Below are positions 12,717 to 55,039 of a stretch of 64,000 nt of DNA, one piece after another. Location of the stretch: positions 77,130,001-77,194,000 of the forward strand of contig NC_086097.1 in the NCBI RefSeq assembly GCF_963921235.1, given 5' to 3'. Source of the stretch: Mobula hypostoma. Its lineage: Eukaryota. The translations under genes and the position numbers were made by a program. Each line of letters begins with the position of its first letter. The first letter of the stretch is position 1. Below the pieces are notes generated by a model, which saw only the letters and a program-made list of their open reading frames with translations, searched no databases and was not told the DNA's origin.

Positions 12717-15700
12717 CCTCAAAGGTAATGATATCGAGATTACTGCCTGTGCCACGCGACGGTGAGTATAGGAATAGAGTGAGATGGAGGATAAATGCAT
12801 GGCTGAGGAATTGGAGCAAGAGGCAGGGGTTCAGATTTCTGGATCATTGGGACTTCTTTTGGGGCAGGCGTGACCTGTACAAGAAGGACAGGTTGCACTT
12901 GAATCCAAGGGGTACCAATATCCTGGCAGGGAGGTTTGCTAAGGCTCTTGGGGAGAGTTTAAACTAGAATTGCTGGGGGTGGTGGGAACCAAACTAAAGA
13001 GACAGAGGAAGGGGCAGTTGGCTCACAAATAGAGACAGCTTGTAAGCAGTATGAGAGGGAAGATAGGCAGGTGATAGAGAAAGGAAGCACTCAGACTGAT
13101 TATTTGAGATGTGTTTATTTCAATGCAAGGAGTACCATGAACAAAGCAGATGAGCTAAGAGTGTGGATCAGTACTTGGAGCTATGATGTTGTAGCCATTA
13201 CAGAGACTTGGATGGCTCAGGGGCAGGAACGGCTACTTAGAGTGCCAGGCTTTAGATGTTTCAGAAAGGATAAGGAGAGAGGCAAAACAGGTGGGGGCGT
13301 GGCACTGTTGATCATAGTGTCACAGCTGCAGAAAAGGAGGAAGACATGGAGGGATTGTCTACAGAGTCTCTGTGGGTGGAAGTTAGAAACAGGAAGGCAT
13401 AAATAACTCTACTGGGTGTTTCTTATAGACCACCCAATTGTAACAGGGACATCAAGGAGCAGATAGGGAGACAGATTCCGGAATGGTGCAGTAATAACAG
13501 GGTTGTCGTGATGGGAGATTTTAATTTCCCCAATATTGACTGGCATCTCCCTAGAGCAAAGGGTTTAGATGGAGTGGAGTTTGTTAGGTGTGTTCAGGAA
13601 GGTTTCCTGACGCAGTATGTAAATAAGCCTAGAAGAGGAGAGGCTGTACTTGATCTGGTATTGTGAAATTAACCAGGTCAGATTCAGGTCTCTCAGTGGG
13701 AGAGCACTTTGGAGATGGTTCTATCTCCTTTACCACGGCATTGGAGAGGAATAGGAACAAACAAGTTAGGAAAACATTTAATTGGAGTAAGGGGAAATAT
13801 GAAGCTATCAAGCAGGAACTTGGAATTATAAATTGGGAACAGATGTTCTCAGGGAAATATATGGCAGAGATGTGGCAAATGTTCAGGGGATATTTGTGCG
13901 GCGTTCTACATAGGTACGTTCCAATGAGACGGGAAAAGTTTGATGGTAGGGTACAGGAACCGTGGTGGACAAAGGTTGTTGAAAATCTAGTCAAGAAGAA
14001 AAGAAAGTCTTACGCAAGGTTCAAAAAGCTAGGTAATGATAGAGATCTGGAAAATTATAAGGCTAGTAGGAAGGAGTTTAAGAATGAAATTAGGAGAGCC
14101 GGAAGGGGTTATGAGAAGGCCTTGCCGAGCAGGATTAAGGAAAACCCCAAGGCATTCTTCAAGTATGTGAAGAGCAAGAGGATGAGACGCAAGAGAATAG
14201 GACCAATCAAGTGTGACAGTGGAAAAGTGTGTATGGAACCAGAGGAGATAGTGGAGGTATTTAATGACTACTTTGCTTCAGTATTCATTATGGAAAAGGA
14301 CCTTGGCCATTGTAGGGATGACTTACAGCAGACTGAAAAGCTTGAGCATATAGACCTTAAGAAAGAGGATGTGCTGGAGCTTTTGGAAAGCATCAAGTTG
14401 GATAAGTCGCTGGGACCGGACGAGATGTACCCCAGGCTTCTGTGGGAGGTGGGGGAAGAGATTGCTGAGCCTCTGGCAATGATGTTTGCATCATCAATGG
14501 GGATGGGAGAGGTTCCGGAGGACTGAAGGGTTGCAGATGTTGTTCCCTTATTCAAGAAGGTGAGTAGAGATAGCCCAGAAACTCATAGACCAGTGAGTTT
14601 TACTTCAGTGGTTGGTAAGTTGATGACGAGGATCCTGAGAGGCAGGATTGATGAACATTTGGAGAGGCATAATATGATTACAAATAGTCAGCATGGCTTT
14701 GTCAAAGGCAGGTCGTGCCTTACGAGCCTGATTGAATTTTTTGAGGATGCGACTAAACACATTGATGAAGGTAGAGCAGTAGATGTAGTGTATATGGATT
14801 TCACCAAGGCATTTGACAAGGTACCCCTTGCAAGGCTTATTGAGAAAATAAGGAGGCATGGGATTCAAGGGGACCTTGCTTTGTGGATCCAGGACTGGCT
14901 TGCACATAGAAGGCAAAGAGTTGTTGCAGACAGGTCATATTCTGCAGGGAGGTTGGTGACCAGTGGTGTGCTTCAGGGATCTGTTCTGGGACCCCTGCTC
15001 TTCGTGATTTTTATAAATGACCTGGATGAGGAAGCGGAGGAATGGGTTAGTAAATTTGCTGATGACACAAAGGTTGGGGGTGTTGTGGATAGTGTGGAGA
15101 GCTGTCAGAAGTTGCAGCGGGACATCGATAGGATGCAAAACTGGACAGAGAAATGGCAGATGGAGTTCAACCCAGATAAGTGTGAGGTGGTTCATTTTGG
15201 TAGGTCAAATATGATGGCGGAATTTAGCATTAATGGTGAGACTCTTGACAGAGTGGAGGATCAGAGGGATCTTGGGGTCCGAGTCCATTGAACTTTCAAA
15301 GCTGCTGCATGGATTGACTATGTGTTAAGAAGGCATACGATGTATTGGTATTCATCGACCATGGGATTGAGTCCAAGAGTCGAGAGGTAATGTTTCAGCT
15401 ATATAGGACCTTGGTCAGACCCCATTTGGAGTATTGTGCTCAGTTCTGGTCACCTCACTACAGGAAGGATGTGGAAACTATAGAAAGGGTGCAGAGGAGA
15501 TTTACAAGGATGTTGCCCGGAGTGGGGAGCCTTATGAGAATAGATTGAGTGAACTCGGCCTTTTCTCCATGGAGTGACAGAGGATAAGAGGTGACCTGAT
15601 AAAGGTGTATAAGATGATGAGAGGTATTGATCGTGTGGATAGTGAGAGGCCTTTTCCCTGTGCTGAAATGGTTAATACGAGAGAGCACAGTTTTAAGATG

Positions 15701-25231: not shown

Positions 25232-28200
25232 TATTAATGCCCAATCAACATGGGCAAGTTTTTCTTTTGTTTAAGGAACTTTACTTTCAACGTCTCCATT
25301 CAATACCTGAAGGCTGCCACCTTTACATTCCACAATTCCCTCTCCTCCTCTGAAGTGCACATGCGCAAAACGGGGAGAGCGCACATATGTAATACTTACA
25401 CAGTTCAAGTGAACAGGACTCAACAATCTCCCATCTTTTTTATGTATATATTAAAAACATTAAATTTGAAAATAAATTTAAAGACAAATTAAATGTCCAA
25501 ACAATTTGTATGTCCATTAGGATATGAGAAATAGTTCTAACTCTTGATGTTAATACAATTCTTAAGGTACCAAGTGCCTTTAACAGCACAAGAGCTAGAA
25601 CTCCCTTCTTTGTGAGACAGTCAGCTAGTTGTTTCTTTGTAGTTGACCATAGCACATGATGAATTTTCAGTGCTTGGACAAGTTCTTCGATGCTGCTTAT
25701 CTCTAGACGAAGCCTCTTCTCTATAACTGATTTGGTGGATTTGATGGCATCAACCAAAAAGTAATTTTGTCTGTGACACAAGTTATTTGTAGACTGTTCT
25801 TCTTTGGGTCACATGGAAAAGCTCAGAACAGAGTGTGACCAGAAAAACAGCATTGTCAATACCTTCAGACATTGCCAGGGTTTCTCCTGCCAGCATACTA
25901 CTTACAACTCGGATCCTTTTTGATTCCCAATAGAGAGATGAAAATCTTCCCTCTTCTCCCATCAGTACAATAAAATGTCCCCCTTGAGTTCCTCCATCAG
26001 AAGGATTTCAGAGTGAGGCATCACTGAAGACAACAAGCCTCAGTAAGTTATCTTTTCCAAGCTGTTGAAACTTCTAGACTATTTTTTCAGATTGAATTCA
26101 TGTACACTATCTTGTTTGCCTCATGTAAAGTATATACTGTGGTATTTTTTGTGCTGGATGCCAAGTTGAAGGCTTCAAACATAATGTCAGGTGTGCTCTA
26201 TCTTTCCACCCATAGAATCTGACCCATCTTTCACCTACATTGCTCAGCTTCAGCTTTACTGAGGGGTGCATCCCATTGTGTGGCACGGTCGGATTCCATG
26301 CGGATTGTCTGAAGATTCCTTATGTAGCTTTCCTCGTGCAGTTGTACTGTTCTGTCAACAGCAAGGATGTCTATCCCTGCATAGCAGAATCTGTCACGTT
26401 CATCCTGTCCAACCTGAAAGACTGACTTTAGCTGAGGGATAACTGTCGTAGCAAAGTTTTGTGAGCCTCCCGATATGAAGTCATCTACAAGACAGGTAAG
26501 TATTCCAATCACATGAAATCCTGAATCTTCCAGTAAGAAACAGCTGGATCCACTTGTGACATCTTTCCATCTGTTTTTAACATTATTTCCTTCACCTTTT
26601 TATACCAGTAGAGTGATGCATTTGTTAGACCATACACACACTTTTTGAGTTTCCACAGTGTTCCTTCACTTCTGGCTTCAGGCGGTGTTGAATAAAAATG
26701 TCTTGTGACAAGTCCATTCCCTGTAAGAATGCGGATTTTATATCCACACAGTGGGGTTGTCAATGCTTTTGACATATTACCGAGAGAAGTAGTGGGAGAG
26801 ACGGATGCATATGTTGGTGAATCTTTCCGGAGTTCTTCTAATTTCAGTTCCTCAAAACCTCTAACCACCCAGTGTGCTTTTGATATAATTCCTGAAGGGG
26901 TTTCTTTCGGGGTGCATACCCATCTTGTAGACACTGTCTTTTGGCCAATATCTCTGACTTCCTCGAACACACCATTATTTCTCCAACTACTGATTTTATC
27001 CTGTTTTGCGATTCAAAAGACACCTCCTTAGTTACTAGGACATCTTCAACTTGACATTTCTCAGATGGTCCAGCCTGATCTCTACTTGATTCAATATGAA
27101 GTCTGTCAACATGTGACATGTCAACTGACTCTGCAGTGCCAGTGACCGTGACTGATTCTAGGGAATTCAAGTTGTACCAACTTTTGCTTCTCCCAGTGTC
27201 TTTGCCTGCTTAACTTAAGACTTCAGCATTGTCTGAGGTACCAGTGTCTACAAATCTCACAGTTTGTCCTGTTTTAAGACTGAAACTTACATGTTGTCTT
27301 TGCACTTGTGATAATTTCTGTTCGGGCAAGTCTGTTAAGTTCCCATCTGCACTCTCTTTTACACTGTCTGTGCCACCACTGAGCAACTCTATTGAATCCC
27401 CAACTGAACTCTCTTCATCCCTGTCTGTGCTATGTGACCGTGTGCCAGGTAAATGCTTTTCATTTTTTATGTCATTCTCCATGGCATTCTGATGGTCTTC
27501 ATTTTGTGCTTTATCTAGTCTAGAATGATGCACCCCCACATTTGTACCTCCGTGTCTCACGAATACCACAACTCCAACCCGACCAGTGACAACTCCTGGA
27601 CCTTTCCATTCTGTACGGTATGCTGTTTTGTAATAGACTTTGTCCCCTGTGTCATATTTGTCATTTGTAGGACGGACCTGTGCCCTCAGTGCTCTTCGAA
27701 TTCTCTCTGAACACTCTGCTTCAGTGAAAGTTTTCCTTGATGCATGCAGTTTTGAAATATGTTTCCTAACCCATTTACTCCTTGAAGGGCCACCTAGAGC
27801 AGGTGGTCTGTCAACCAGTATAGAGGGAAGATTTGGATTCTGACCGAACACCAATCGATATGGTCTATAGCCATATACATTGTACAAGGTGTTCTTCACC
27901 ATAAGGGCCCAGTCCAGGGCTGTATTCCAATCATAGCCCTTGCTTTCCTTTACCTTCAGCATTGTTTCTGTAAGCGTTTGATTATGTCACTCCACAAGTC
28001 AGTTACTCCAAGTACTATATGCCGCTGTTGTCTTTGTTTCAGTGTTAAAGTTCTCTGCCGTATCTCTGAGGGTCTCTTTGTATTTACAATGCTACCAGCA
28101 CTGAAAGGTGTGAACTATCAATGATGTGGAGGTACCATACTCCTTGCTGCAGTTCATGTAAGTCTATGGCTACTGTTTCATTGTATTCAAATGCTGGTGG

Positions 28201-32062: not shown

Positions 32063-33598
32063 ATGATGGAATCAGATCTCTTAAGGAATGGATCCATGAC
32101 TGGTAACAGCTCCAATCAAGAGGAGGGTCAGAGCCTTTTGAAAGTAGTATCAATTTCCATTATTACTGCTATTGTGAGCCTTGTAACAATAGTAGGTAAT
32201 ATTTTAGTCATTGTTTCATTCAAAGTGAACAGCCAGCTAAAGACAGTCAATAACTATTTCCTGTTAAGTCTAGCCTGTGCTGACCTCATCATTGGAATTT
32301 TTTCAATGAATCTCTACGCCTCTTATATATTAATCGGCTCCTGGTCGCTAGGAAATTTGACGTGTGATTTGTGGCTTGCGTTGGATTACGTAGCCAGTAA
32401 TGCCTCTGTCATGAATTTGCTCCTTATAAGCTTCGACCGGTATTTCTCAATCACACGGCCATTAACGTACAGGGCTAAGCGTACTCCCAGAAGGGCTGGT
32501 ATCATGATTGGACTTGCATGGTTAATATCCTTTATATTGTGGGCCCCTGCAATTTTATGTTGGCAATACTTAGTTGGAAAAAGAACGGTTCCTTCGAATG
32601 AATGTCAGATACAATTTTTATCTGTACCTACTATTACCTTTGGCACGGCCATTGCTGCTTTCTACATCCCTGTGTCAGTGATGACGATATTGTATTGTCG
32701 CATCTATAAAGAGACCGAAAGACGCACTAAGGACCTGGCAGAATTGCAAGCATCAAACCTTGCCCCTGAAGATGAAGTAGTTGTTTCCAAAAGGACTCTG
32801 TTAGCATCCTGCTTTGGATGTGTAGGCCACAAGCTCACACACAGGGAAAGATCCCAAGTATCGTGGTCTTCAAACAGAAGCACAACAGTGACTCTAAGAT
32901 CCACAAACATACAGAATGCCACAGATGAATGGTTAAAACGTGACAACCAAGATTCTTTTGCAAACTACCCCATGTCAGAAGATGATGAAAGGCTCACCCC
33001 AAAATCTGCCTCCTTGGCATCACAAGGACAGAATCAGAATGATGAATACCCTGGAGAGGATGACACAACTGTGTCCTTGGAAGAGCCTCCTGCGATAAAT
33101 AATTATGAAAATCAAAATTATTTGGTGACCCCTGTGAAAAAACAGAAGGATAAAAAGTACATCCCTTACAAAGGTAATAAAGTAGCTGTCAAAAATAGCA
33201 GCTCCTCATCCACCTCAGACACAAGTAATGGCTGCACTGAAATAAAAGTAACACCCCGCTCAACTGCTGAACCAGAAGTTCCATATATTAGAAATATGGA
33301 TCCAAATCTCAGACTGCAGATCACCAAGAGAAAACGGTTGGTTTTGATTAAAGAAAAAAAGGCAGCACAAACACTTAGCGCGATTCTACTGGCTTTCATT
33401 ATCACATGGACACCGTACAATATCATGGTATTAGTCTCAACGTTCTGCTCATACTGTATCCCAACGTCACTGTGGCATCTGGGGTACTGGCTCTGTTACG
33501 TTAACAGCACAGTTAACCCCATGTGCTACGCTCTGTGTAACAAAACCTTCCGTACGACTTTCAAAATGCTGTTACTATTTCAATGGAAGCGGAAGTGA
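32063..33598 (+). CDS. CHRM5: Muscarinic acetylcholine receptor M5, 511 aa, intronless CDS
   Basis: 7TM class A GPCR with [22 protein letters not shown]5-type [47 protein letters not shown]. First ATG at 32063. EMC7 lies downstream on the opposite strand, as in human. Confidence 0.95.
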
Positions 33599-36080: not shown

Positions 36081-37687
36081 GTCAAGTTTAACATTCTCCT
36101 AATTCACAGCCATATGTGCAAAACCTACAAATAGACCTGTTTAAGATTCATTGATTTCTTCTTCATTTAAGTTTCGAAGAACAATTCTGTAAGATACTTT
36201 TTCTTTCAGTGGAAACAACTCGCCAAGAAAAAAATACAGAATTTTTTTTGCCCTGACAGTCAATCTTCTGAACCAAACATTCGTACAGTTAAACATCCAC
36301 TGGAATTATCACAGCTGGGTCTCGCATCTTCAATCACTTCCAAGAAAGATATTAATAAGAATCAGGAGCTGAATAAAATCTATTTTATTCTTTTGTATAG
36401 CTTGGAAACTTAATAAAACTTATAAAATTGCATCCACTGAAAATTAGATGTTAAAATTAAATTAATTAGGGAGTCTTTCATATTCATGATTAACATTTAA
36501 AGTCTATTAAAGTGGAATAAAGATTCAGGAAATTATATACATAGTATATTTGGACTAAAACCAAACAACATATATAAAATATTTTAAATAATTACAAATA
36601 TTGAACAAACCACAAATAGTTAAATAAAAGGAAACTTTCTCTTTTCTATTTTTCCATGTAGTCCTCCAATGGTCACTGGCATCAGTGGGTGATGGAGCTA
36701 ACCTGGAGAGGCAGAACGTGTTGGTATTTTAAGATACACAAGTTGAGACATCCACATTTGACAATTCATGCATATAGGTTTTGGACTTACTGATGTTTAA
36801 ACAGGCAAATGCTGGCGGTTCCATTCATAACTGCTGGTATTTAACGACAATCAAGCCGATGAAACAGAGAGTGTCATACATCTTAGCCAAATCATCACAC
36901 ACATGTATTATAACCAAATTATTTTATTCACAGAGTAAAATAAACAAATAGATTTTTAAATATTTACTTAATATCTAAATGCATATAAGAAAATTTGCCC
37001 TGGAAATAATTAAATTAATAGCACAGTTTATAGATCTGAGGAGAATTAATTTGTGCAGAGGACAAAGAATTGTTGTAATCATACATAGGTCATCTTGAAA
37101 CTGTTGCTTGTTTTAATTTGCATTTTCTATACCTCTCACTGTCAGTGGGGATCTTAAGTTTGATTTTTCAATTGGGTTTCACAACTTTTTGTTGATGAGA
37201 GATATGCTCTCTTTCAAAACATTATCAATATTGCATTATATTCATCTACAGGTAATGTTTATTTATTCAGCAGATACCCTCACCCAAAGTCATTTTCCCA
37301 GATATTTCAATATTGGATACAAAATGACACTACGGCAACTTTGAATATGACACCATTTAATTTAATTTCAAGCTCTTCATTATTTTCATGCAAACAATTT
37401 CATTCTTCCATCTGAAGAGATTTGAGCTCCCACCACAAACAGAAACAATCATATTTCAAAACAACTATATTAATCACATCTTTTCCACATAAAAATTTAC
37501 TCATGCAGGCAGTACGATGCTGTAGAGCGAATTACTAATCCAATTTGCTCAATTACATTGGACATGTTCTTTTACCAATCTTTCTGGTAAATAAGCCCAA
37601 CGTGCACTTATTCAAAAAAAAATCAATGAATTGTTGAACTTACAAATGAGTTATTAGATTTATTTTCACTTAATTTTTGCACCATAG

Positions 37688-38382
37688 TTACAGCTCATCA
37701 CGCGAGGTACTGCTGCATTTGACTTCCCTGTTTTTAGGCTTTACCATCATCCATGCATACTTGCACAGGTTATCTTTATTACAATCATTCTGCCAGTAAA
37801 TAACATTTTTTCTGTTGAGATTGGCTCCAGCACAGGCATTATACCACCATCCTCCACCTGGTATCCCATTGAGTTCCAGTTTGGCACAATTTCGATAATA
37901 GTTGTCATTATCACTATCTTTTGTGGTGAATTTTTGGTTGTCGTGAATATAAGCTTCTGTATCTTTCGTCAAAGCATCAGTTGCAGTTCCACGATAAAGA
38001 CCAAGTCTAATTTTATATCTGGATTCTTCGTCTTCAATGAAAAATGGGTCATATTCTCCCCACTTCACCTCTCCATTCATGTTGACTAATTTGATTCCCA
38101 AACTATATTCATTTGACCTGCTAGTGATTCTATGCATTAACTCATTGCCCAACCAATGATCACCATTAATAAAGCCAAATCCTTGCTTGTAGTCCTGCCA
38201 CGTTCTGTCAAAGTCCAATGAGCTATTAACAGTGATGTGCTGGATTACAGTCCACCCACCATCTGCACTGTGCATGTCACAGTAAACAACAATATGATCC
38301 TTCATTAACTGAATGACATAGAGGCCATCTTCAGCTTTGCTTTCTGACTGCTGAAAAATCTCATAACAGTCACTTGGAAAAC
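37688..38382 (-). CDS. Fibrinogen-related-domain (FGL1-like) protein, coding exon 2
   Basis: Acceptor ttgtgcag|GT, phase 1; SDC, VYCDM, GGWTVIQ, WQDYKQGFG, WLGNE, FTTKDSDND, GGWWYNAC..NLN; ends RDEL*. Confidence 0.93.
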
Positions 38383-38729
38383 CTGCACAACACAAAATGA
38401 TTAGTACAACAATCAGTTGAGAAATTTTACATTTTTCATCTAGCAAAAATTCATTGGAAGAAAAGGAAAATGGACAATTTGTGAAACAAGTAGTCAGACA
38501 TGTAACCGCATTAAACAAGGCCTTTTTTTGCAGGTGCTGATTTCTGTGGTTTATTCTGTGTTAATATAACATTAATACTAATTCTTACATCCCAATAGCT
38601 CTACTCTCTTGCTGCATTGTATTTTACTGCGGTAAAAGTACAAAAAAGGTATATATTGATCCACACAACTATAATTATTGCCTCACAAGGACATATACAA
38701 CATCCACCCTGAAGCTAATTCAGACTTAC

Positions 38730-38889
38730 CGCCTTGCTGTCTCAAATTGATGATATGAGCATAATCTTTAGAAGTTAAAAGATGTGCATTTCTGAGTTCC
38801 AATGATGATTCAGTGCTTATCAAGGTGGTACACTTCAGCAACATCAAAAGAGTAATGGTGAAAAGGCTCCTCAAATTCATCACTAACAT
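38730..38889 (-). CDS. Fibrinogen-related-domain protein, coding exon 1 (signal peptide + linker)
   Basis: MLVMNLRSLFTITLLMLLKCTTLIST...; donor G|gtaagt, phase 1, matches exon 2. 347-bp intron; 855-nt CDS = 284 aa. Confidence 0.88.
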
Positions 38890-39899
38890 TGCGCTTGAAT
38901 TCTTGGGAAAAAAAAGTAAGGTTAAAAAAAAGATTACATGAACCTTGTGTCAAAAATATGAATTAAACAATTTCCTATCCATACATTGTTGCCCCAGTGT
39001 ACATGATCACTTTAAACTGGAGCACACTGGTTGGCAACATAAAGGTAACAGCTTTGGCCTCACCACCAGATGGTTTCAAACAGAGACTAGAAGCTATTTG
39101 TCAGTCCAGATTAATTGCTATAATTCTGATGAGATTCTTTTGTTCTGGCAAGAGTTCCTATGTAAAAGGCTTCATGGATCACCACATCAACTTTGGACGA
39201 TAGGTACAAATTGATGTCTCACTTTGAGACTCTATCCAAGCAACTGGCTGGTAATAATCAATTTTTTTGGCATTGATTGTACAGAAACTGGCAGTGAATA
39301 TAGAGAAATCATTACAGTGAAATAATCTATCAATTTAATGGAAATATGCAAAGAGTAAAAATTATTAAACTGTATAATTATTAACTCATTTATTCTAAGG
39401 TTTCAACTGGTACACTAATAATTGGTTCAGTTGTGTGAATTTAATCACTCAGATACAAATACTTCTACATACCATGCTTTTGTACGCATTCTGTGTGTAA
39501 ATATCTACAGTATACAGTTTAGTTATCTATTGTTAAAGTGCCAATTACTTTAAGATCCTACTTTTTTAAACTGGTCCTCCAATCTAGTTCTAACAACCTA
39601 GATATTAACAGGAAACATATGAATGTATCAGAACCTACCTTTCAATGTGAAGTAAATTCAGTTATACACACATGGCAAATCTCATCACAGCAGAAAGAAT
39701 ATATGTGAAGGAACTTGTCAGTACCTATTCATACCTTATTGTACTCTGGGAAGTGCTGACATTTCAGTTCAATGTACAATTAATTCTCATTAGCTAGGGT
39801 GCGTTCAGTAACCAAAGTCTAACATGACAAGTTTACAGGATTTCAATTGCTATCTGTGCACTTTGAACTAGATTTGTGAAGAAAAGAATGTGTATAATA

Positions 39900-40345
39900 A
39901 AATACAATAGCTTTCTTGACCTCTGAGTATTCCGCAGTCAATGCCATTTTTCAAGGGAGGGCCACCGCCATAGTAAGGGAGATGGATTGGTCTCTATCAG
40001 CTTTGGACATCTGGACACTGCAATTTTTTCCCATTCTCCTTTACAAAACTACTCAAGCTCTGTCAGATTGCATGGGGATCATGAGTGAACAGCTCTTTTC
40101 AAGCCCAGCCACAAATTCTCAATTGGATTGAGGTCTGGGATCTGACTTGGCCACTCCAGGACATTAGCTTTCATGTTTTTAAGCCATTCCTGTGTAGCTT
40201 TGGCTTTAGGCTTGGGGTCATTGTCTCGCTGGAAAACAAATCTTCTCCCAAGTCACTGTTCTCTTGCAGACTGCATCGGGTTTTCCTCCAGGATTTCCCT
40301 GTATTTGCTGCATTCACTTTGCCCTCTACGTTCACAAGCCTTCCA
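39900..40345 (-). mobile_element. Tc1/mariner transposase C-terminal fragment
   Basis: [11 protein letters not shown] and [18 protein letters not shown]. Confidence 0.85.
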
Positions 40346-41059
40346 AATTATTCTTATGTCTTATGGTCCTACCTTGTTTAGCAGCCTCATGTGAGGCACA
40401 TCAAAGGCCTTCAGAAAATCCAAGTAAACAACTTCCACTGATTTCTCCCTACATTCCCAATTTCGCTCTAGATTCTAATTTATCTATATGGTGGGGGGGG
40501 GGGGACTTAGAACCAAGTGATGTTCCAGCCTGGTCGAAGAAAAAGAAATAGCTTTGGCTTAATGGACCACTCAAAAAACAAAGAGCATCTCTGAAAGGAC
40601 AGCATAACCGCAATACCGCCATGAAATATTCAATTCAGTGTTGGGCATTAGTGCCTGCAGTACACATTCCTCTTGAGAAAAAGTTTCAAATGTCACATTT
40701 AATCATTTTAAAGAGGAAAGTGGAGTTTTCCTCCTCTGCATTTAGATATTCTAGGCTTTATAAAGGACGGACCAAAGGATGCCTCATGTTAAGACTTATT
40801 AGTTAGCACATCTGTGAGCATGACAATTCTACTTGCTTGCTAATGGGAATGCTGCTCCTGAGGCCAAAGTGCAATAAGGACTTGTCAGAACACAACATAG
40901 CACCACTGGGTTTATAAGTAAAGTAAAGATATAATACTTGGCCTGCATCATGACTTTCCTGTTAGTGGGAGATGTCAGTCGCTAAACTTTTAAACTATAA
41001 GATCATGACAGCTAGCAATAATACATATCTCTGCTAGAGGATATAGGGCTCACGTGCAA

Positions 41060-41520
41060 GGGTTAAGTTCGAAGTAAATTTATTGTCAAAGTACATATTT
41101 GTTGCCATATACTACCCTGAGATTCATTTTCAAAGAAACACAACAGAATCAATGAAAAACTGCACACAAGGACACACAAACAACCAATGTGCAAAAGAAT
41201 TGTGCAAGTACAAAAAAGGAGACAAAAACAAAATAATAATAAATAAATAATAAATATTGAGAACATGAGTTGAAAAGTCCTTGAAAGTGAGTCCACAGGT
41301 TGTGGAACTAGTTCAGTGTTCGGGTGAGTGAAGTTAGCCATTCTAGTTCAACAGCATGGTAGTTGAATGGTAATACAGTAACTGTTCCTGAGCCTGGTAT
41401 CGTGGGACCTAGGGATCCTGTACCTCAGCAAGTGGCCATCAGCAAAAACAAAGCATGGACTGGTTGGTGGGGATTCTCAATGATGGATTCTGCTTTTCTA
41501 CTACAGCGCTCCAGTGCAAG
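41060..41520 (-). mobile_element. Rex1/Babar 3' end
   Basis: RKAESIIENPHQPVHALFLL; aataaatttacttcgaac tail. Confidence 0.75.
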
Positions 41521-44210
41521 GAACTTAACCAATTTTGGTTGGAGAATCTGGACACTGGGACAGAACCTCAAACAGGAAGCACCAGTCAAAATATCTAATG
41601 CCAAATAAAGTCTAGAATGTGAAATAAACAAAAGTTGGTTTAAGAGAGATGGATAACCAGCATGACGGAACATTAGCTGGTCCTCCTCCCTCACAGATCC
41701 AGTGACTGGAATTTGATCCTGATCTTTGTGCTGTCTGGGTAGAGTTTGTAAATTTCTCCTTGCACCCATACAGAATCCTGTCAGGTACTCCAGTTTATTT
41801 CCAAGTTCAAGGAGGTGGTACTAAATTGACTTGGCTACTGTAAATTACTCCTTAATGCAGGTTGAAGCAAACTATATAATTGGAACTGATGGGCAGGTGA
41901 CAAAAAATAAATTGGAGGCTAAAGGGAAATAAGAGGGAGAATGTGTCTAATACAACTCTTTTGCTGGGAGCTCACATTGATTGATTGCTCAAATGTCCTT
42001 CAGTATTGTCATAGAGTAGGTTACATTAAGGAAGACAGTACAATTAAAATCTGAAGGGGCAATCTAACAGATGGGGAAGTTAATTTTCAGTACTGCAGAA
42101 GATGCTTGGTATGTCCAAAGCTTACCATGTCCAAAGGTCACTGCAACAATGAACCTGCTATTTCACCTTTGAACGTGATGCTTCAGGGTGAGCATACCAT
42201 TTTGAACAGCAACTTCTGGATTCCTTTGTTAAAGTAAGCATGTATTGTCACCATCCATGTCTAAGTTATACTTTATTAATAGCAAACCTTCAATCACAGC
42301 ATCGCCTATGATGTGATTGTCATAGAAAATACATGCCACAGTGCCACATAAAGGCAAAAATGATACAATTACAGATATGAATATCATGGCGCATCGCCTC
42401 CACCTACTGATATAACATGAGATAAATGAAGGGTAGAATATAAGGAAAAATAATTACAAAGCACAATGAAGATATCAAGTAAACAAAATCACTGCACAAT
42501 CTTTTCTTCACATTGTCCCACTTAGGCAAATAAGCAATGACATAGGTCGAGGATGTCAATCTATAAAGTAGTTTTAATAAATCATAATGCAATAATTTAC
42601 TTGCAAAGAAACAGTCTCACCCAAAAATTTAGTTTGGTAAAATAATTAACCTGCAGTTAATTTCCTAAAAATTGCATTCATTGAATTTTTCTGTTGTTTG
42701 AAGAGGTAAAAACTTTGTGTTTTCCTGGAAAATAATCTAAAGTTTCACAAATTTACAACTGATTTCTTCAGGAATATTTAGTAATGATTGTAATTATAAG
42801 ATATTTTAAAATAATTTTCATTCCCTTCTATGCTTCAGCTAATACCATCACTCAATATGGCACATAACAATATAGGTCAATAAAGTTCTTTACCTCAGCT
42901 GAGTTAACCAATAATAATAGTTCAGAGGGAAAGCCTATTAGTTATCCATTGATTTTGTATAAGGTCATATCAAGCTAAAGAATCCATACCCTCTCTGGAT
43001 ATGCTAAGTTACTAACCAGCCTGGCGGTGGGAAGAGAAAATTATTTAATAAAGTAGATAAAGCCATAGAAAACCATTTGTACAATGACAAAATTGTTCAA
43101 AGGTTAAAGCCTACAAACAGAAATTCAAGAAAAGACTAAAATATTATAGCCTATAAAAAATGAAATTATAAAATTTGCCTGGTGGCCGCTGATGGAGTAA
43201 CAGCTCTCTGCTGGTGCTCCCAACTTACTTACTTTTGTCTCCAACATTTTGAAATCCTACTGCTAGACAGGTTATTATATTACTATGACTACCAAAGAAG
43301 CTTTGGAAGCTATTACAGGCTCAATTCAAAAGCTTACTGAGGAGTTTCAACAGCTCAGAAAAGAAGCGTCGGCTGACTCGCAACAAATCAGCACTGAAAT
43401 TAAACAAATAGGGACGAAATTAGACGATATTCAAGCGACTCTAACCAAGCATGACAAGAAAATAAAGGAAAATGAGGATGGATGAGAAAATGGATGATTT
43501 GCAAAAGCTGTATGACAAACAATCCAAGTCCAACGAAATACTGAGAGAGAAGATTATTGATTTGGAAAACAGAAGTAGGAGAGACAACTTACGAAACTTG
43601 GGACTTAAAGAGCAAACTGAAGGAGATAATCCTAAAGAATTCTTTGCAAACCTTTTGATGGAATTATTCCCTGATATAATAAAGTTTCTGTCTTTGATTG
43701 ATCGTGCTCACAGATCACCTATCTATGGATCAAGTTCAAAATCAAAACCAAGATCTAGAGCGCTCTAGGTTACTCCAAGGGGAACTGACCAGACAAACCA
43801 GCAGCCCACACTCAACCCCAAGGCTACTTATATTCCAAGCCCCAAGATGGAAATCAGGTGCCTATGATTAACTCAAACAAGGGACAGCTGGAAGACCCGG
43901 AGTCCTGAGTCCACAGACCGGACCGTGAACTGGAATGCGGACTTCACGGACCGGACCATGACAGTCTAAGCTTTTTTTTATCTGTATATTATTTAGTCTT
44001 GGTTGGAACAGTAAATAATCTTGAGTTCTCTGAAGCTGTTCGAACAGGCTTTCTAAGGGGATGTTTTCAGTGGGGGTAAATAGCGGTTGTTCTTTGACCA
44101 ATTTTCTTTCTTTGGGAGGAGGGAGAGGTATGGGGAGTTCTTTATTCTTGAAGCTGATTTGGGAATCTAATCAATTCTGTTGTTTAGCTAATATATCTCA
44201 AGATTTATTA

Positions 44211-45654: not shown

Positions 45655-48600
45655 TTATACTGCAAGTATTAAGAAAAAAGCTAATAAAGAGAGAAGTGAT
45701 TTAGCTAATCAGCTGAAACAATTAAACCAAGAGTATGCCTTGGCTCCAGAACCTGCCTTATATAAAAGACATGTTGAAACTAAAACTAAATATGATCTCC
45801 TTTTAACCTATCCAATTGAAACGCAACTCCTAAAAGATAAAAGTCAATTTTATATTCATGGAGATAATTCAGGTAAATTATTGGCTGATCAAATTAAAAC
45901 CTTTATAGCTGAACAGCAGATTAAAGAAATATGCAAAGCTAATTGTGATAGGACAACTGATTATTTAGAAATAAATGATACTTTTAGAGAATTTTATTCT
46001 AAACTCTATAGTTCTGAATCTTCTAAAGATAACACTGTAATGAACAATTCTTTAGACCAACTAAACATTCCTACAATTTCTGCCGACAACAGAAAGTTGT
46101 TGGAACAACCTATTTCTTTTGAGGAAATTGTTGAGGCTGTGCCCTCATTACATTTGAGGAAAGCTCCGGGTCCAGATAGGTTTTCTGGAGAGTTTTACAA
46201 GATCTTTTCCTCACTGCTTATACCTCATTTACGTTCAATATTTTTCGGATTCGTTCAAGTCGGGCAGACTCCCTCAATCTTCTTATGAGGCTTCTATTTC
46301 GCGTATCCTTAAAAAGAATAAGGATCCAACTGAATGCTCTTCTTATAGACCAATTTCTTTACTTAATGTTGATACTAAGATCCTATCTAAAGTTTTGGCC
46401 CATAGTATTGAAAATATTTTACCATCTTTCATTTCCGATAACCAAACTGGATTTGTCAAAAATCAATATTCTCACTTTAATATTTGTTGGTTATTAAATA
46501 TTATTTATTCTCCTTCTAACATGATATCGGAACGTGTGGTATCCCGAGATGCTGAGAAAGCTTTCGCCAGAGTTGAATGGAATTATTTATTTAAAACTTT
46601 AGAAAAATTCAATCTTGGACCCGTTTTCATTCAATGGATTAAATTACCTTATTTAGCTCATTCTGCTAATTCTCATAATTCCAAAACATTTAAACTTCAG
46701 TGTGGCACTAGACAAGGCTGTCTGTTGAGCCTTTGGCTTTTTGATCTGGCCTTAGAACCTTTAGCCATTTCCTTTTGAGAATCTAATTATATCACCGGTA
46801 TTTTAAGGAGCGATACTATTCACAAAGTCTTGCTGTACGCTGATGATCTGCTGCTATTTATTTCCAATGTTCAGACTTCGTTATCCCATGCGCTTCCTTT
46901 ACTCTTCTGTTTTAGCCAGTTCTCAGGTTATAAATTAAACCTACATGAAAGAGAACTTTTCCCTTTGAATAATTTGATACCAACAAATTCTAACCTTCCT
47001 TTTCAAATTGTAAGAAACCAATTTACCTGCTTAGGTGTAACAATTACTAAAAACTATAAGCGCCTATTTAAAGAAAATTTTCTTATCCTATTGAATCACG
47101 TAAAAAGGATACTATCAAATTGGTCGCCTCTTTCGTTATCGCTGATTGGCTGAATTAACTCTATATGAATATATTTCCTAAATTTATATACCTTTTTTAG
47201 GCATTTCATGTTTTTATTCCTAAATCTTTCTTTCATTCTCTTGACTCTATTATAGCCTTTTATATATGAAAGAATAAGTGTTCTAGATTAAATAAAATTC
47301 ATCTTCAGAAAGATAAAAAATATGGAGGATCAGCCTTACCAAACTTTAGATTTTATTATTGGGCAGTTAATATAAGAAATCTTACATTTTGGTTATATTA
47401 TATTAGTCGTGAGGATTGCCTGATGTGGGTTTTTTTAGAAGCTAACTCTGTTAATAAATTTTCTATTATTTCTCTTCTTGGATCCTCACTTCCTTTGTCT
47501 CTGAGTAAATTAATTGATAATCTGGTAGTTAAACACACTATGAGAATTTGGATACAATTCTGAAAATACTTTGGCTTACTAAGGTTCTCTCTTTTAAGTC
47601 CCATTTTTTCTAATTAATTTTTTAAACCCTTTATGATTGATGTGGCTTTTAAAGAATGGAATAGATAAGGTATTAAAGTGCTTTCAGGACTTGTTTGTAG
47701 AGGGAAGTCTCTTTTTGCTTGAACACCTATCAACTAAATATAGTTTACCCAAAACTCAGTTTTTTCGATACTTACAAATAAGAGATTTTTTACGGTCTCA
47801 AGTAAGTACATTTCCTAAAAGTCCTGATAAGAATCTACTAGATGTAATTTTTAATTTGAAACCTATTTATAATGGATCTATATCTAATATTTATAATATG
47901 CTGTTGGGAATAAGAAGTGTTCCTTTAGATAAAATTAAAAATCTTTGGGAACAAGATTTACAGACTTCAATTTCTGAGGAAATTTGGAATTAAATTTTTA
48001 AATTGGTTAACACTTCATCATTATGTGCCCGCCACTCTCTGCTACAATTTAAAGTGGCCCATAAGGCCGATATGACCAAAGATAAGTTGTCTCGTTTTTA
48101 TTTAGATATATCTCTGTATTGTGATAAATGTAATAATGGAGAAGCTTCACTCATTCATATGTTTTGAGTCTTGTAAAATATTGGAAAGAAGTATTTCAAA
48201 CTTCCTCGATACTTTTCAAAGTAAACTTTAAGCCTAATCCTTTGACCGCTTTATTTGGTATTGTTGGAGGAAAGGATATTATTTTGGAGTCATCTGACTT
48301 GCACATTTTGGCTTTTATTTCTCTTATGGCCAGAAGGACGCTCTTGCTTAAATGGAAAGATGCAGCTCCTCCTATTCACGCTCAATGGTTACGTGATGTG
48401 ATGTCATGTTTAAATTTAGAGAAGATTCGATGTTCAATCCCTGAATCTAGCCAAGACTTTCAAACATTGTGGGGACCTTTTTTTGACTTATTTTCAAAAC
48501 CTTTGATTTGCTGTTAAAGCACAGATGATGACTAATAATATTTTTTTCCTTTTTTTCTTTACTAATCAGCTTTGGCCTTGGTAGTGGGTTAGATTTTTTT

Positions 48601-53945: not shown

Positions 53946-54772
53946 TACTCATACCTCCGATTTTAGTTTCTCCCTCTCAAATTGCAAAGTCAATTCTATT
54001 ACACTGATCCAGGCTCCATGTCCATGCTATTATCTACTTTACCATAGTGATAACAGCCACAAAAGTCATCAAGTTAGAAGTCAAAACAAAAACATACTCA
54101 AAATGTTTAGATGCTATGAACAGAAAATGCAATTTCTCGGGAGGATTGTCATATATGAGACAAGAGGTTTCTGTCATCTGCAATTAAATTTGTGAAATGT
54201 TGTACCTCTATTAAATGGGAGCAAAACAGAACCTTGTTATCAGGAGAACAAATTCCAAATCATTCAAAGTGGCTATTAATAATACTATAATGATCATACC
54301 AAAAGTCAGAGCCTTATGTCGATCTTGTATTATTTTATTTTGTGCACTTGGAAATATACTGTACATAGCTCAGAAACAGTTATCTTCAATATACTTTCAT
54401 GAATTTTTGACCTTCTTGTACAACAGAAAATGAACAAGGATCTGAAATATTTTTATATTACTTTCATTTCTTGCACAAACTTTATATGTATTAAAAATAC
54501 TTACCAAAAGTTGCAGTAAATAAACTAGGATATTAATGTTGCATTACATTTTAATTTAATTATAATAAATCTTCCAAATGTACTAGTCACTGCAAGCACA
54601 CAGAATTTTTGATGTTTCAAAATATACATAAACACCAAACCCTTGTCTTCAAGAAGTCATATGTTATTTCTCAGATTTTATTTTGCCTTGTGAACAGTTG
54701 AGTGTTCTACCAGTGATTTCTCTTCAGAGCACAGATAGACAGTGTATTAACCTCGAATTATGTTCCAAAGGA

Positions 54773-54919
54773 CTACCTCCTCTTTACTGCACCACTCTTC
54801 CCAGCCTTATTGCCACTTCCAGACTTAGATGATTTAGAAGAGAAGAGGCGAGTCATAAACTCTGAAACATCTGGTAACTCGTGATTTGGGTTCAGCATGT
54901 TCATGGACTGCTCCATCTC
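54773..54919 (-). CDS. EMC7: ER membrane protein complex subunit 7, last coding exon (upstream exons not found in window)
   Basis: Acceptor ttttctgtcctag|GAG; translates [48 protein letters not shown], recognisable as the vertebrate EMC7 C-terminus. Minus-strand AATAAA at 54677-54682 and 54334-54339. Confidence 0.93.
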
Positions 54920-55039
54920 CTAGGACAGAAAACAACCACATGCTGTTACAATGCTTCATAAAGTACATGCAAATAAATTCAATGACACTAAATAAAGCTT
55001 TTAGGAACACTGAATACAGAAGTCATTTGAGTTTGACCC

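What the first reader, a model, noticed from the sequence alone, without database searches (positions are those of the whole stretch)
37688..38889. Stand-alone fibrinogen-domain protein with a signal peptide and C-terminal RDEL: candidate ER-resident FReD
Seen: a clean GT-AG phase-1 splice gives 284 aa: hydrophobic leader, ~28-aa linker, an intact FReD and ...KCSSTSRDEL*. No coiled-coil or collagen stalk is visible. Established: RDEL is a KDEL-receptor retrieval variant, while fibrinogen, angiopoietin, ficolin and FGL families are typically secreted and oligomerise via stalks. Inference: an ER-retained lectin- or chaperone-like FReD. I know of no equivalent gene between CHRM5 and EMC7 in human, so it may be lineage-restricted.
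Basis: partly seen in the sequence, partly recalled or inferred. Interest (0 to 1): 0.8.

Follow-up and report, generated by a model that had tools for sequence, protein, structure and literature searches.

The report
ER-tagged fibrinogen-domain protein mammals lack
This ray gene makes a small fibrinogen-family protein ending in a 'return to the ER' tag that its orthologues from sharks to birds also carry, so it likely works inside the cell rather than in blood like its relatives, and mammals appear to have lost it.

Summary
The 38729-38383 intron is spliced in RNA-type contigs, and there is an extra 5' non-coding exon. The 284-aa product is identical to the RefSeq protein XP_062925554.1 of Mobula hypostoma, orthologous to zebrafish zgc:194887. 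So the gene is annotated but, in my searches, uncharacterised. It is not narrowly lineage-restricted: orthologues run from sharks to birds, and none was found in mammals or snakes. 92 of 102 orthologue clusters end in K/R/H/N-x-E-L on a variable tail, against 0 of 134 other fibrinogen-domain (FReD) proteins. The lamprey orthologue and the stalkless sister paralogues lack the tag, so it was likely gained in the jawed-vertebrate ancestor. The trout orthologue is in a liver proteome but not among 513 plasma proteins, which is weak support. The calcium site is intact, the ficolin acetyl pocket is not, and the remodelled ligand subdomain is the most conserved part. Best reading: an ER-retrieved FReD that binds a protein client. 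Localisation and client are untested.

The parts
39639..39731 (-). 5' non-coding exon (5' end approximate); holds two short out-of-frame upstream ATGs
   Evidence: joint 38901/39639 in X1-X3; in-frame stop, 7-aa and 3-aa uORFs
38902..39638 (-). intron 1, 737 nt, GT..AG
38730..38901 (-). exon 2: ATG at 38889 (second in-frame ATG at 38880), predicted signal peptide (about aa 1-26) and folded N-terminal segment (aa 31-53)
38383..38729 (-). intron 2, 347 nt, phase 1, GT..AG
37688..38382 (-). coding part of exon 3: whole FReD (aa 55-270) with invariant N106 sequon, D209/D211/D213 calcium loop and Cys pairs 59-88, 219-237, 254-260 (pairing inferred)
37688..37732 (-). flexible tail (aa 271-284) with the seventh, probably unpaired Cys276 and terminal RDEL, then TAA
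37000..37687 (-). 3' UTR (covered to the edge of the laid stretch; end not fixed), AATAAA at 37664 and 37267
32063..33598 (+). neighbour: CHRM5, 511-aa single-exon ORF, convergent with the gene
   Evidence: best PDB match human M5, E 1.2e-168
54319..54920 (-). neighbour: last exon of EMC7 with its own poly(A) end, about 14.6 kb upstream of the gene
   Evidence: tblastn 96%; poly(T) loose end at 54319; earlier exons just beyond the window

Best explanation
The gene encodes a stalkless fibrinogen-related domain with a predicted signal peptide and a conserved C-terminal RDEL, which likely makes KDEL receptors return it to the ER, where it would bind a protein client rather than act as a secreted factor. 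Shown here: splicing, the protein sequence, conservation of the tag, and the position in the tree. Inferred steps: (1) entry into the ER and glycosylation at N106. (2) Folding into a calcium-binding FReD with three disulfides. (3) Retrieval from the Golgi through the exposed tail (about 85% likely). (4) The remodelled, highly conserved P subdomain grips a protein partner, perhaps helped by a mixed or inter-chain disulfide through the tail cysteine, so the protein holds, escorts or helps assemble that partner in secretory cells such as hepatocytes (about 60% given step 3). Candidate clients are its own tag-less sister FReDs, other fibrinogen-family chains, or the lumenal domain of a FReD receptor; none is identified.
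For: Tag conservation: 92 of 102 orthologue clusters end xxEL (KDEL 44, RDEL 27, KVEL 8, NDEL 4, HDEL 2, KEEL 2, KLEL 2, HTEL, HSEL, REEL 1 each), and 91 of the 93 with an intact last strand do. 81 of 83 further cluster members do too; the two exceptions are lamprey. Background: 0 of 134 other FReDs end in EL; 0 of 144 remote representatives match PROSITE, and 3 end in EL with no tail. The tail varies in length (13-19 aa) and sequence (2.4-3.5 bits) while positions -1/-2 are fixed (0.15-0.17 bits), so the motif is anchored to the terminus. The variants fit a human reporter screen in which -4 accepts K/R/H/N, -3 anything but Pro, and KVEL retains ERp27 (PMC2140024, passages). The tail is low-confidence in the model, consistent with being flexible and exposed (pLDDT 60 and 48). 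Trout XP_021430114 has 3 unique peptides in 11 of 11 livers and rises on infection (log2 0.71) (PMC6167799). It is not found in the searchable plasma tables of a 513-protein study on the same protein set, where FGL1, fibrinogen alpha and MFAP4-likes appear and calreticulin, endoplasmin, GRP78 and PDI do not (PMC10623068). The P subdomain is the most conserved region (0.91 against 0.71-0.76). A tail Cys is present in 91 of 93 rows, at -6 in 71.
Against: There is no localisation or secretion assay and no client. Absence from a 513-protein plasma list is weak for a protein seen by only 3 peptides in liver, and one supplement file was cut when stored. In the infected liver it rises with secreted acute-phase proteins as well as with ER chaperones, so that result does not discriminate. 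No ERSE, ERSE-II or UPRE consensus was found in 39600-42800 (patterns recalled). The lamprey orthologue keeps most of the P subdomain without the tag, so the binding surface predates retention and could serve an extracellular partner. Many birds carry KVEL or KLEL, which suggests some relaxation. The P subdomain was low-confidence when folded from orthologues alone (pLDDT under 50 for 194-249) and confident only with other FReDs in the alignment.
Confidence: 0.52

Rival explanations
1. A stored signal: it is kept in the ER by the tag at rest and released when ER calcium falls or KDEL receptors saturate, then acts outside the cell as a FReD ligand (MANF/AGR2-like behaviour, recalled).
For: The P subdomain is the receptor-binding part of angiopoietins and FGL1 (recalled) and is the most conserved part here. 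The tag-less lamprey orthologue shares it. The protein rises on infection in trout liver.
Against: It was not seen in the searchable plasma tables that include infected trout (weak). No receptor is known.
Confidence: 0.18
2. An ER lumenal lectin that reads glycans on cargo.
For: The calcium-site aspartates equivalent to FIBCD1 D393/D395 are invariant (70 of 70). The fold matches ficolins and FIBCD1 at Z about 29.
Against: The FIBCD1 acetyl-pocket residues are not kept: H415 is Ala238 (70 of 70), the Y405 position is Glu223 beside a 5-residue insertion, and the loop carrying Y431 is 11-12 residues shorter (mapped by offset from anchored cysteines). A new sugar site is not excluded.
Confidence: 0.12
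3. An ordinary secreted FReD whose xDEL only slows export or aids folding, with its function outside the cell.
For: Its sister paralogues lack the tag, and two tag-less-looking 'FGL1L' proteins are in turtle plasma. Some motif variants retain only partly (PMC2140024).
Against: Strong variants (KDEL, RDEL, HDEL) dominate in 73 of 92 tagged clusters, across all jawed-vertebrate groups that have the gene. The two turtle plasma proteins (pI 6.89 and 7.94) do not match sea-turtle tagged orthologues (pI 5.3-5.4).
Confidence: 0.13
4. A gene-model artefact, or the tail of an EMC7 fusion.
For: Fused EMC7+FReD models exist for Albula, Lerista and Caretta.
Against: EMC7 ends with its own stop and poly(A) at 54319. 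The gene has its own 5' exon, whose loose end is adapter-like sequence. Stand-alone orthologues of about 280 aa are the rule.
Confidence: 0.01

Closest known systems
[quoted passage not shown]
   Same: This is that gene: identical to XP_062925554.1, and in one clade with the zebrafish protein.
   Different: No function or ER-tag description was found in my searches.
Chicken FGL1L (Swiss-Prot O93526, LOC428073) and other stalkless sister FReDs
   Same: Signal peptide plus bare FReD of about 280 aa, shortened P-domain loop and extra Cys pair; sister clade at 99/94 support.
   Different: The sister paralogues have no xDEL. Chicken FGL1L lies at chr1:171-172 Mb beside THSD1, while the turkey tagged orthologue is on a 59-Mb chromosome, so the shared name is likely borrowed from another locus. 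The O93526 sequence itself was not seen.
Ficolins, FIBCD1, tachylectin 5A (acetyl-binding FReD lectins)
   Same: Fold (Z 28-29, rmsd 1.3-2.1) and calcium site.
   Different: No collagen or coiled-coil stalk, acetyl pocket remodelled, ER tag present.
Angiopoietins, ANGPTL, FGL1, FGL2, fibrinogen chains
   Same: FReD at 30-40% identity. The whole FReD sits in one exon, as in the ray's FGL2-like and fibrinogen-alpha-like exons. Residues 39-53 superpose on the start of the fibrinogen beta nodule.
   Different: No coiled coil, a separate clade, and a terminal xDEL that none of those examined has.
ER-retained escort or holding proteins such as RAP/LRPAP1, SUMF2, egasyn-type carboxylesterases, ERp44 (analogy, recalled)
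   Same: Soluble lumenal protein with a KDEL-type tag, thought here to bind a client.
   Different: Unrelated folds; the client-binding role is only inferred here.

Membership tests
Fibrinogen-related domain proteins (PF00147) | Fibrinogen_C domain above cut-off and FReD fold | tested here: met
   165.9 bits against cut-off 22; Z up to 29.1
zgc:194887 orthologue group | One clade with the zebrafish protein | tested here: met
   15 tagged rows at 97/98; with lamprey 100/98
zgc:194887 orthologue group | Adjacent to EMC7 | tested here: met
   Direct in this genome; indirect elsewhere from merged EMC7+FReD models in Albula, Lerista and Caretta
KDEL-receptor clients (soluble ER residents) | C-terminal [KRHQSA]-[DENQ]-E-L or a tested variant, conserved | tested here: met
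   RDEL; 76 of 102 strict and 92 of 102 xxEL
KDEL-receptor clients (soluble ER residents) | Cleaved signal peptide, no transmembrane segment | tested here: inconclusive
   Hydrophobic leader by hydropathy; zebrafish RefSeq 'precursor'; SignalP not available
KDEL-receptor clients (soluble ER residents) | ER localisation that depends on the motif | not testable with these tools
   Only the indirect trout liver-versus-plasma contrast
Ficolin/FIBCD1 acetyl-binding lectins | Calcium-site aspartates | tested here: met
   D211 and D213 invariant in 70 of 70
Ficolin/FIBCD1 acetyl-binding lectins | S1 pocket Tyr/His/Tyr/Ala/aromatic | tested here: not met
   His to Ala238, Tyr position Glu223, Tyr431 loop shortened; mapped by offsets, not by superposed coordinates
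Angiopoietin/ANGPTL/FGL2/fibrinogen/ficolin | Coiled-coil or collagen stalk before the FReD | tested here: not met
   About 28 residues between leader and FReD, no upstream coding exon; the four longer orthologue-level hits are merged or extended models
FGL1 (true) | Orthology to FGL1 | tested here: inconclusive
   FGL1 was not in the tree. Human FGL1 scores below the angiopoietins (110 against 126 bits), and trout has a separate 335-aa FGL1, so orthology is unlikely.

The most novel reading that the evidence does not exclude
Jawed vertebrates turned a secreted stalkless fibrinogen domain into a dedicated ER-resident escort by adding a Cys-plus-xDEL tail. It controls the folding or release of other FReD proteins or their receptors in liver-type cells, and mammals and snakes dropped it. 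This would be the first ER-resident fibrinogen-family protein I know of.
Probability: 0.3. Interest if true: 0.8.

Novelty: new variant of a known kind. Interest (0 to 1): 0.6.

Why it matters
Fibrinogen-domain proteins are known as extracellular ligands, lectins and clotting factors (established knowledge). A member held inside the ER across jawed vertebrates would add an intracellular role to the family. It would also point to a secretory quality-control step that fish, amphibians, reptiles and birds have and mammals seem to lack. It is directly testable in zebrafish (zgc:194887), and its tag-less lamprey orthologue and sister paralogues are natural controls. The current database name is also likely misleading.

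Tried and rejected
EMC7 fusion or missing stalk exon: rejected. Ficolin-type acetyl lectin: pocket not kept. Turtle plasma 'FGL1L' proteins as evidence of secretion: length and pI fit tag-less paralogues, not the tagged orthologue; matched by properties, not by sequence. UPR promoter elements: none in 39600-42800. First structure model: P subdomain unreliable, replaced. No oligomer model was obtained, so the oligomeric state and the partner of Cys276 stay open. ESM Atlas gave only generic FReD clusters. The run finder listed no holder on record as RNA. Contig depth was 4509 for this gene against 1119 for EMC7 in X1, but about 4-8 against 419-481 in X2 and X3. This hints at tissue-restricted expression, but the tool warns that depth cannot rank genes and the tissues are unnamed. 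An accession I recalled for chicken FGL1L was wrong (it is fibrinogen gamma). Literature searches: one search gave 3 papers (two proteomics tables, one chicken GWAS gene list); some searches were swamped by unrelated hits; one search gave 0; two searches gave nothing on this gene in their listings; one search gave 1 GWAS paper. The nurse-shark plasma supplement could not be read and may bear on secretion. Earlier scan findings: none.

Full report
Observation. Contigs from three runs of one study skip exactly this intron, and a fourth from another organism shows a near-identical joint. The three also splice in a further 5' exon (about 39731-39639) that carries an in-frame stop and no in-frame ATG, so the protein has no hidden stalk. 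Exon 3 matches Pfam Fibrinogen_C. The product is identical to Mobula hypostoma XP_062925554.1 (284 of 284). The gene lies between CHRM5 and EMC7, whose last exon ends with its own poly(A) at 54319. One close copy was found in the genome; the next hits are 43% identical or less over long stretches.

Orthologues. A search with exon 3 gave 136 hits, of which 120 were listed. 102 of them (54-95% identical) form the orthologue set, from sharks, rays, bony fish, coelacanth, amphibians, lizards, turtles, crocodilians, birds and lamprey, including zebrafish zgc:194887. Lungfish appears among the cluster members. A second search with the turtle protein returned essentially the same clusters. No mammal or snake is named in either list or in the 19 clusters opened, although mammals are in the database (hedgehog and sugar glider FReDs). 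Limits: some representatives are unnamed, at most 15 members per cluster are listed, and mammalian genomes were not searched. Loss is therefore inferred.

The tag. 92 of 102 orthologue clusters end in xxEL and 76 match the strict PROSITE pattern. The ten exceptions are lamprey, eight models that lack a normal last strand, and one lizard model with a 41-residue tail; one of the eight has a sister isoform ending KDEL. Among added cluster members 81 of 83 are tagged, the two exceptions being lamprey models. Among other FReDs, 0 of 134 end in EL (four merged or extended orthologue models were left out). Of 144 remote representatives, 0 match PROSITE and 3 end in EL with no tail (the 144 include two degraded models of this clade). 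The tail is 13-19 residues and variable, while the last two residues are fixed and the fourth-last switches among K, R, H and N. In a human reporter screen, position -4 accepts K, R, H or N and position -3 any residue but proline (PMC2140024; passages seen). A cysteine is kept in the tail in 91 of 93 rows and is the odd seventh cysteine of the mature ray protein.

History. In a 50-row maximum-likelihood tree of hand-picked FReDs, the 15 tagged rows form one branch (97/98). Lamprey is their sister (100/98), and 11 tag-less stalkless paralogues come next (99/94). The simplest reading is one gain of the tag on the jawed-vertebrate stem; a loss in lamprey is possible but needs the same number of steps only if the gain came after the split from the paralogues. 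FGL1, ficolins and fibrinogen beta/gamma were not in the tree. The database name probably comes from chicken FGL1L (O93526, seen in a supplement table), which maps to chr1:171-172 Mb (PMC10976558 and PMC4948856, passages), whereas the turkey tagged orthologue is on a 59-Mb chromosome.

Structure. With 117 aligned FReDs the model is confident (pLDDT 90.1) from about residue 31 to 270 and low-confidence in the tail. With orthologues alone the P subdomain was not resolved. All FReD structures score alike (Z 27.6-29.1), and residues 39-53 superpose on the start of the fibrinogen beta nodule. The P subdomain is the most conserved region. Mapped by offset onto FIBCD1 (PMC3908420, passages), the calcium aspartates are invariant, but His415 is Ala, the Tyr405 position is Glu beside a 5-residue insertion, the Tyr431 loop is 11-12 residues shorter, and an extra Cys pair (254, 260) is invariant. 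This argues against acetyl-sugar binding and for a conserved surface for some other ligand, most likely a protein (inference).

Protein-level clues. The trout orthologue XP_021430114 (ends KDEL) has three unique peptides in 11 of 11 livers and rises 0.71 log2 on Aeromonas infection, alongside both ER chaperones and secreted acute-phase proteins (PMC6167799; section 7 part 1 and supplement row). It was not found in the plasma tables of a 513-protein trout study on the same protein set. There, secreted FReDs are present and classic ER residents are absent (PMC10623068; passages and supplement searches, one file cut). Two 'FGL1L' proteins in green-turtle plasma have pI 6.89 and 7.94, unlike sea-turtle tagged orthologues at 5.3-5.4, and are likely paralogues (PMC8084024, supplement rows). 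These clues fit retention but are weak.

Mechanism. The most likely path is entry into the ER by the leader, folding and glycosylation, and retrieval by KDEL receptors through the tail (about 85%). There it likely binds a protein client through the P subdomain and perhaps the tail cysteine (about 60% of that). The rivals are a stress-released ligand, an ER lectin with a new sugar site, and a slowly secreted ordinary FReD. The client and the oligomeric state are open.

Novelty. The gene is annotated, but ten literature searches (one library, mostly open-access; several swamped by noise) showed no functional study and no mention of its ER tag (one search was for the FIBCD1 site). Automatic motif scans may flag it in databases (recalled, not checked). 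I class it as a new variant of a known kind, interest 0.6.

Noticed in passing
window 40082-40252 (-): Decayed DDE_3 (Tc1/mariner-type) transposase fragment with stops, about 350 bp upstream of the gene's first exon.
   Followed up: partly
window 39639-39731 (-): Two short out-of-frame upstream ORFs (7 and 3 aa) in the 5' non-coding exon could modulate translation; conservation not tested.
   Followed up: no
window 32063-33598 (+): The CHRM5 ORF ends ...LLFQWKRK*, which seems shorter than the mammalian M5 tail and lacks the helix-8 cysteine (comparison recalled, not run).
   Followed up: no
L004 and L005 (G000:C12, about 72.65 and 72.69 Mb): Two single-exon FReD genes 42 kb apart that resemble the tag-less stalkless paralogues; their open frames end without xDEL.
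   Followed up: partly
window 26512-27012 (-), 14527-15288 (+), 46158-46775 (+): Retroelement fragments: RVT_2 (copia-type) and RVT_1 (LINE-type) reverse transcriptase pieces.
   Followed up: partly
proteins P0124, P0126, P0290, P0127: Public gene models merge this gene with EMC7 (Albula, Lerista, Caretta) or with a PF13925 katanin-related protein (Syngnathoides); the Caretta merge pulls turtle EMC7 into the same 90% cluster.
   Followed up: partly
orthologue lists: No snake orthologue is named although many lizards have it, a possible second loss. Many passerine and other neoavian birds shifted to KVEL or KLEL, while galliforms and ducks have KEEL and ostrich KDEL.
   Followed up: partly
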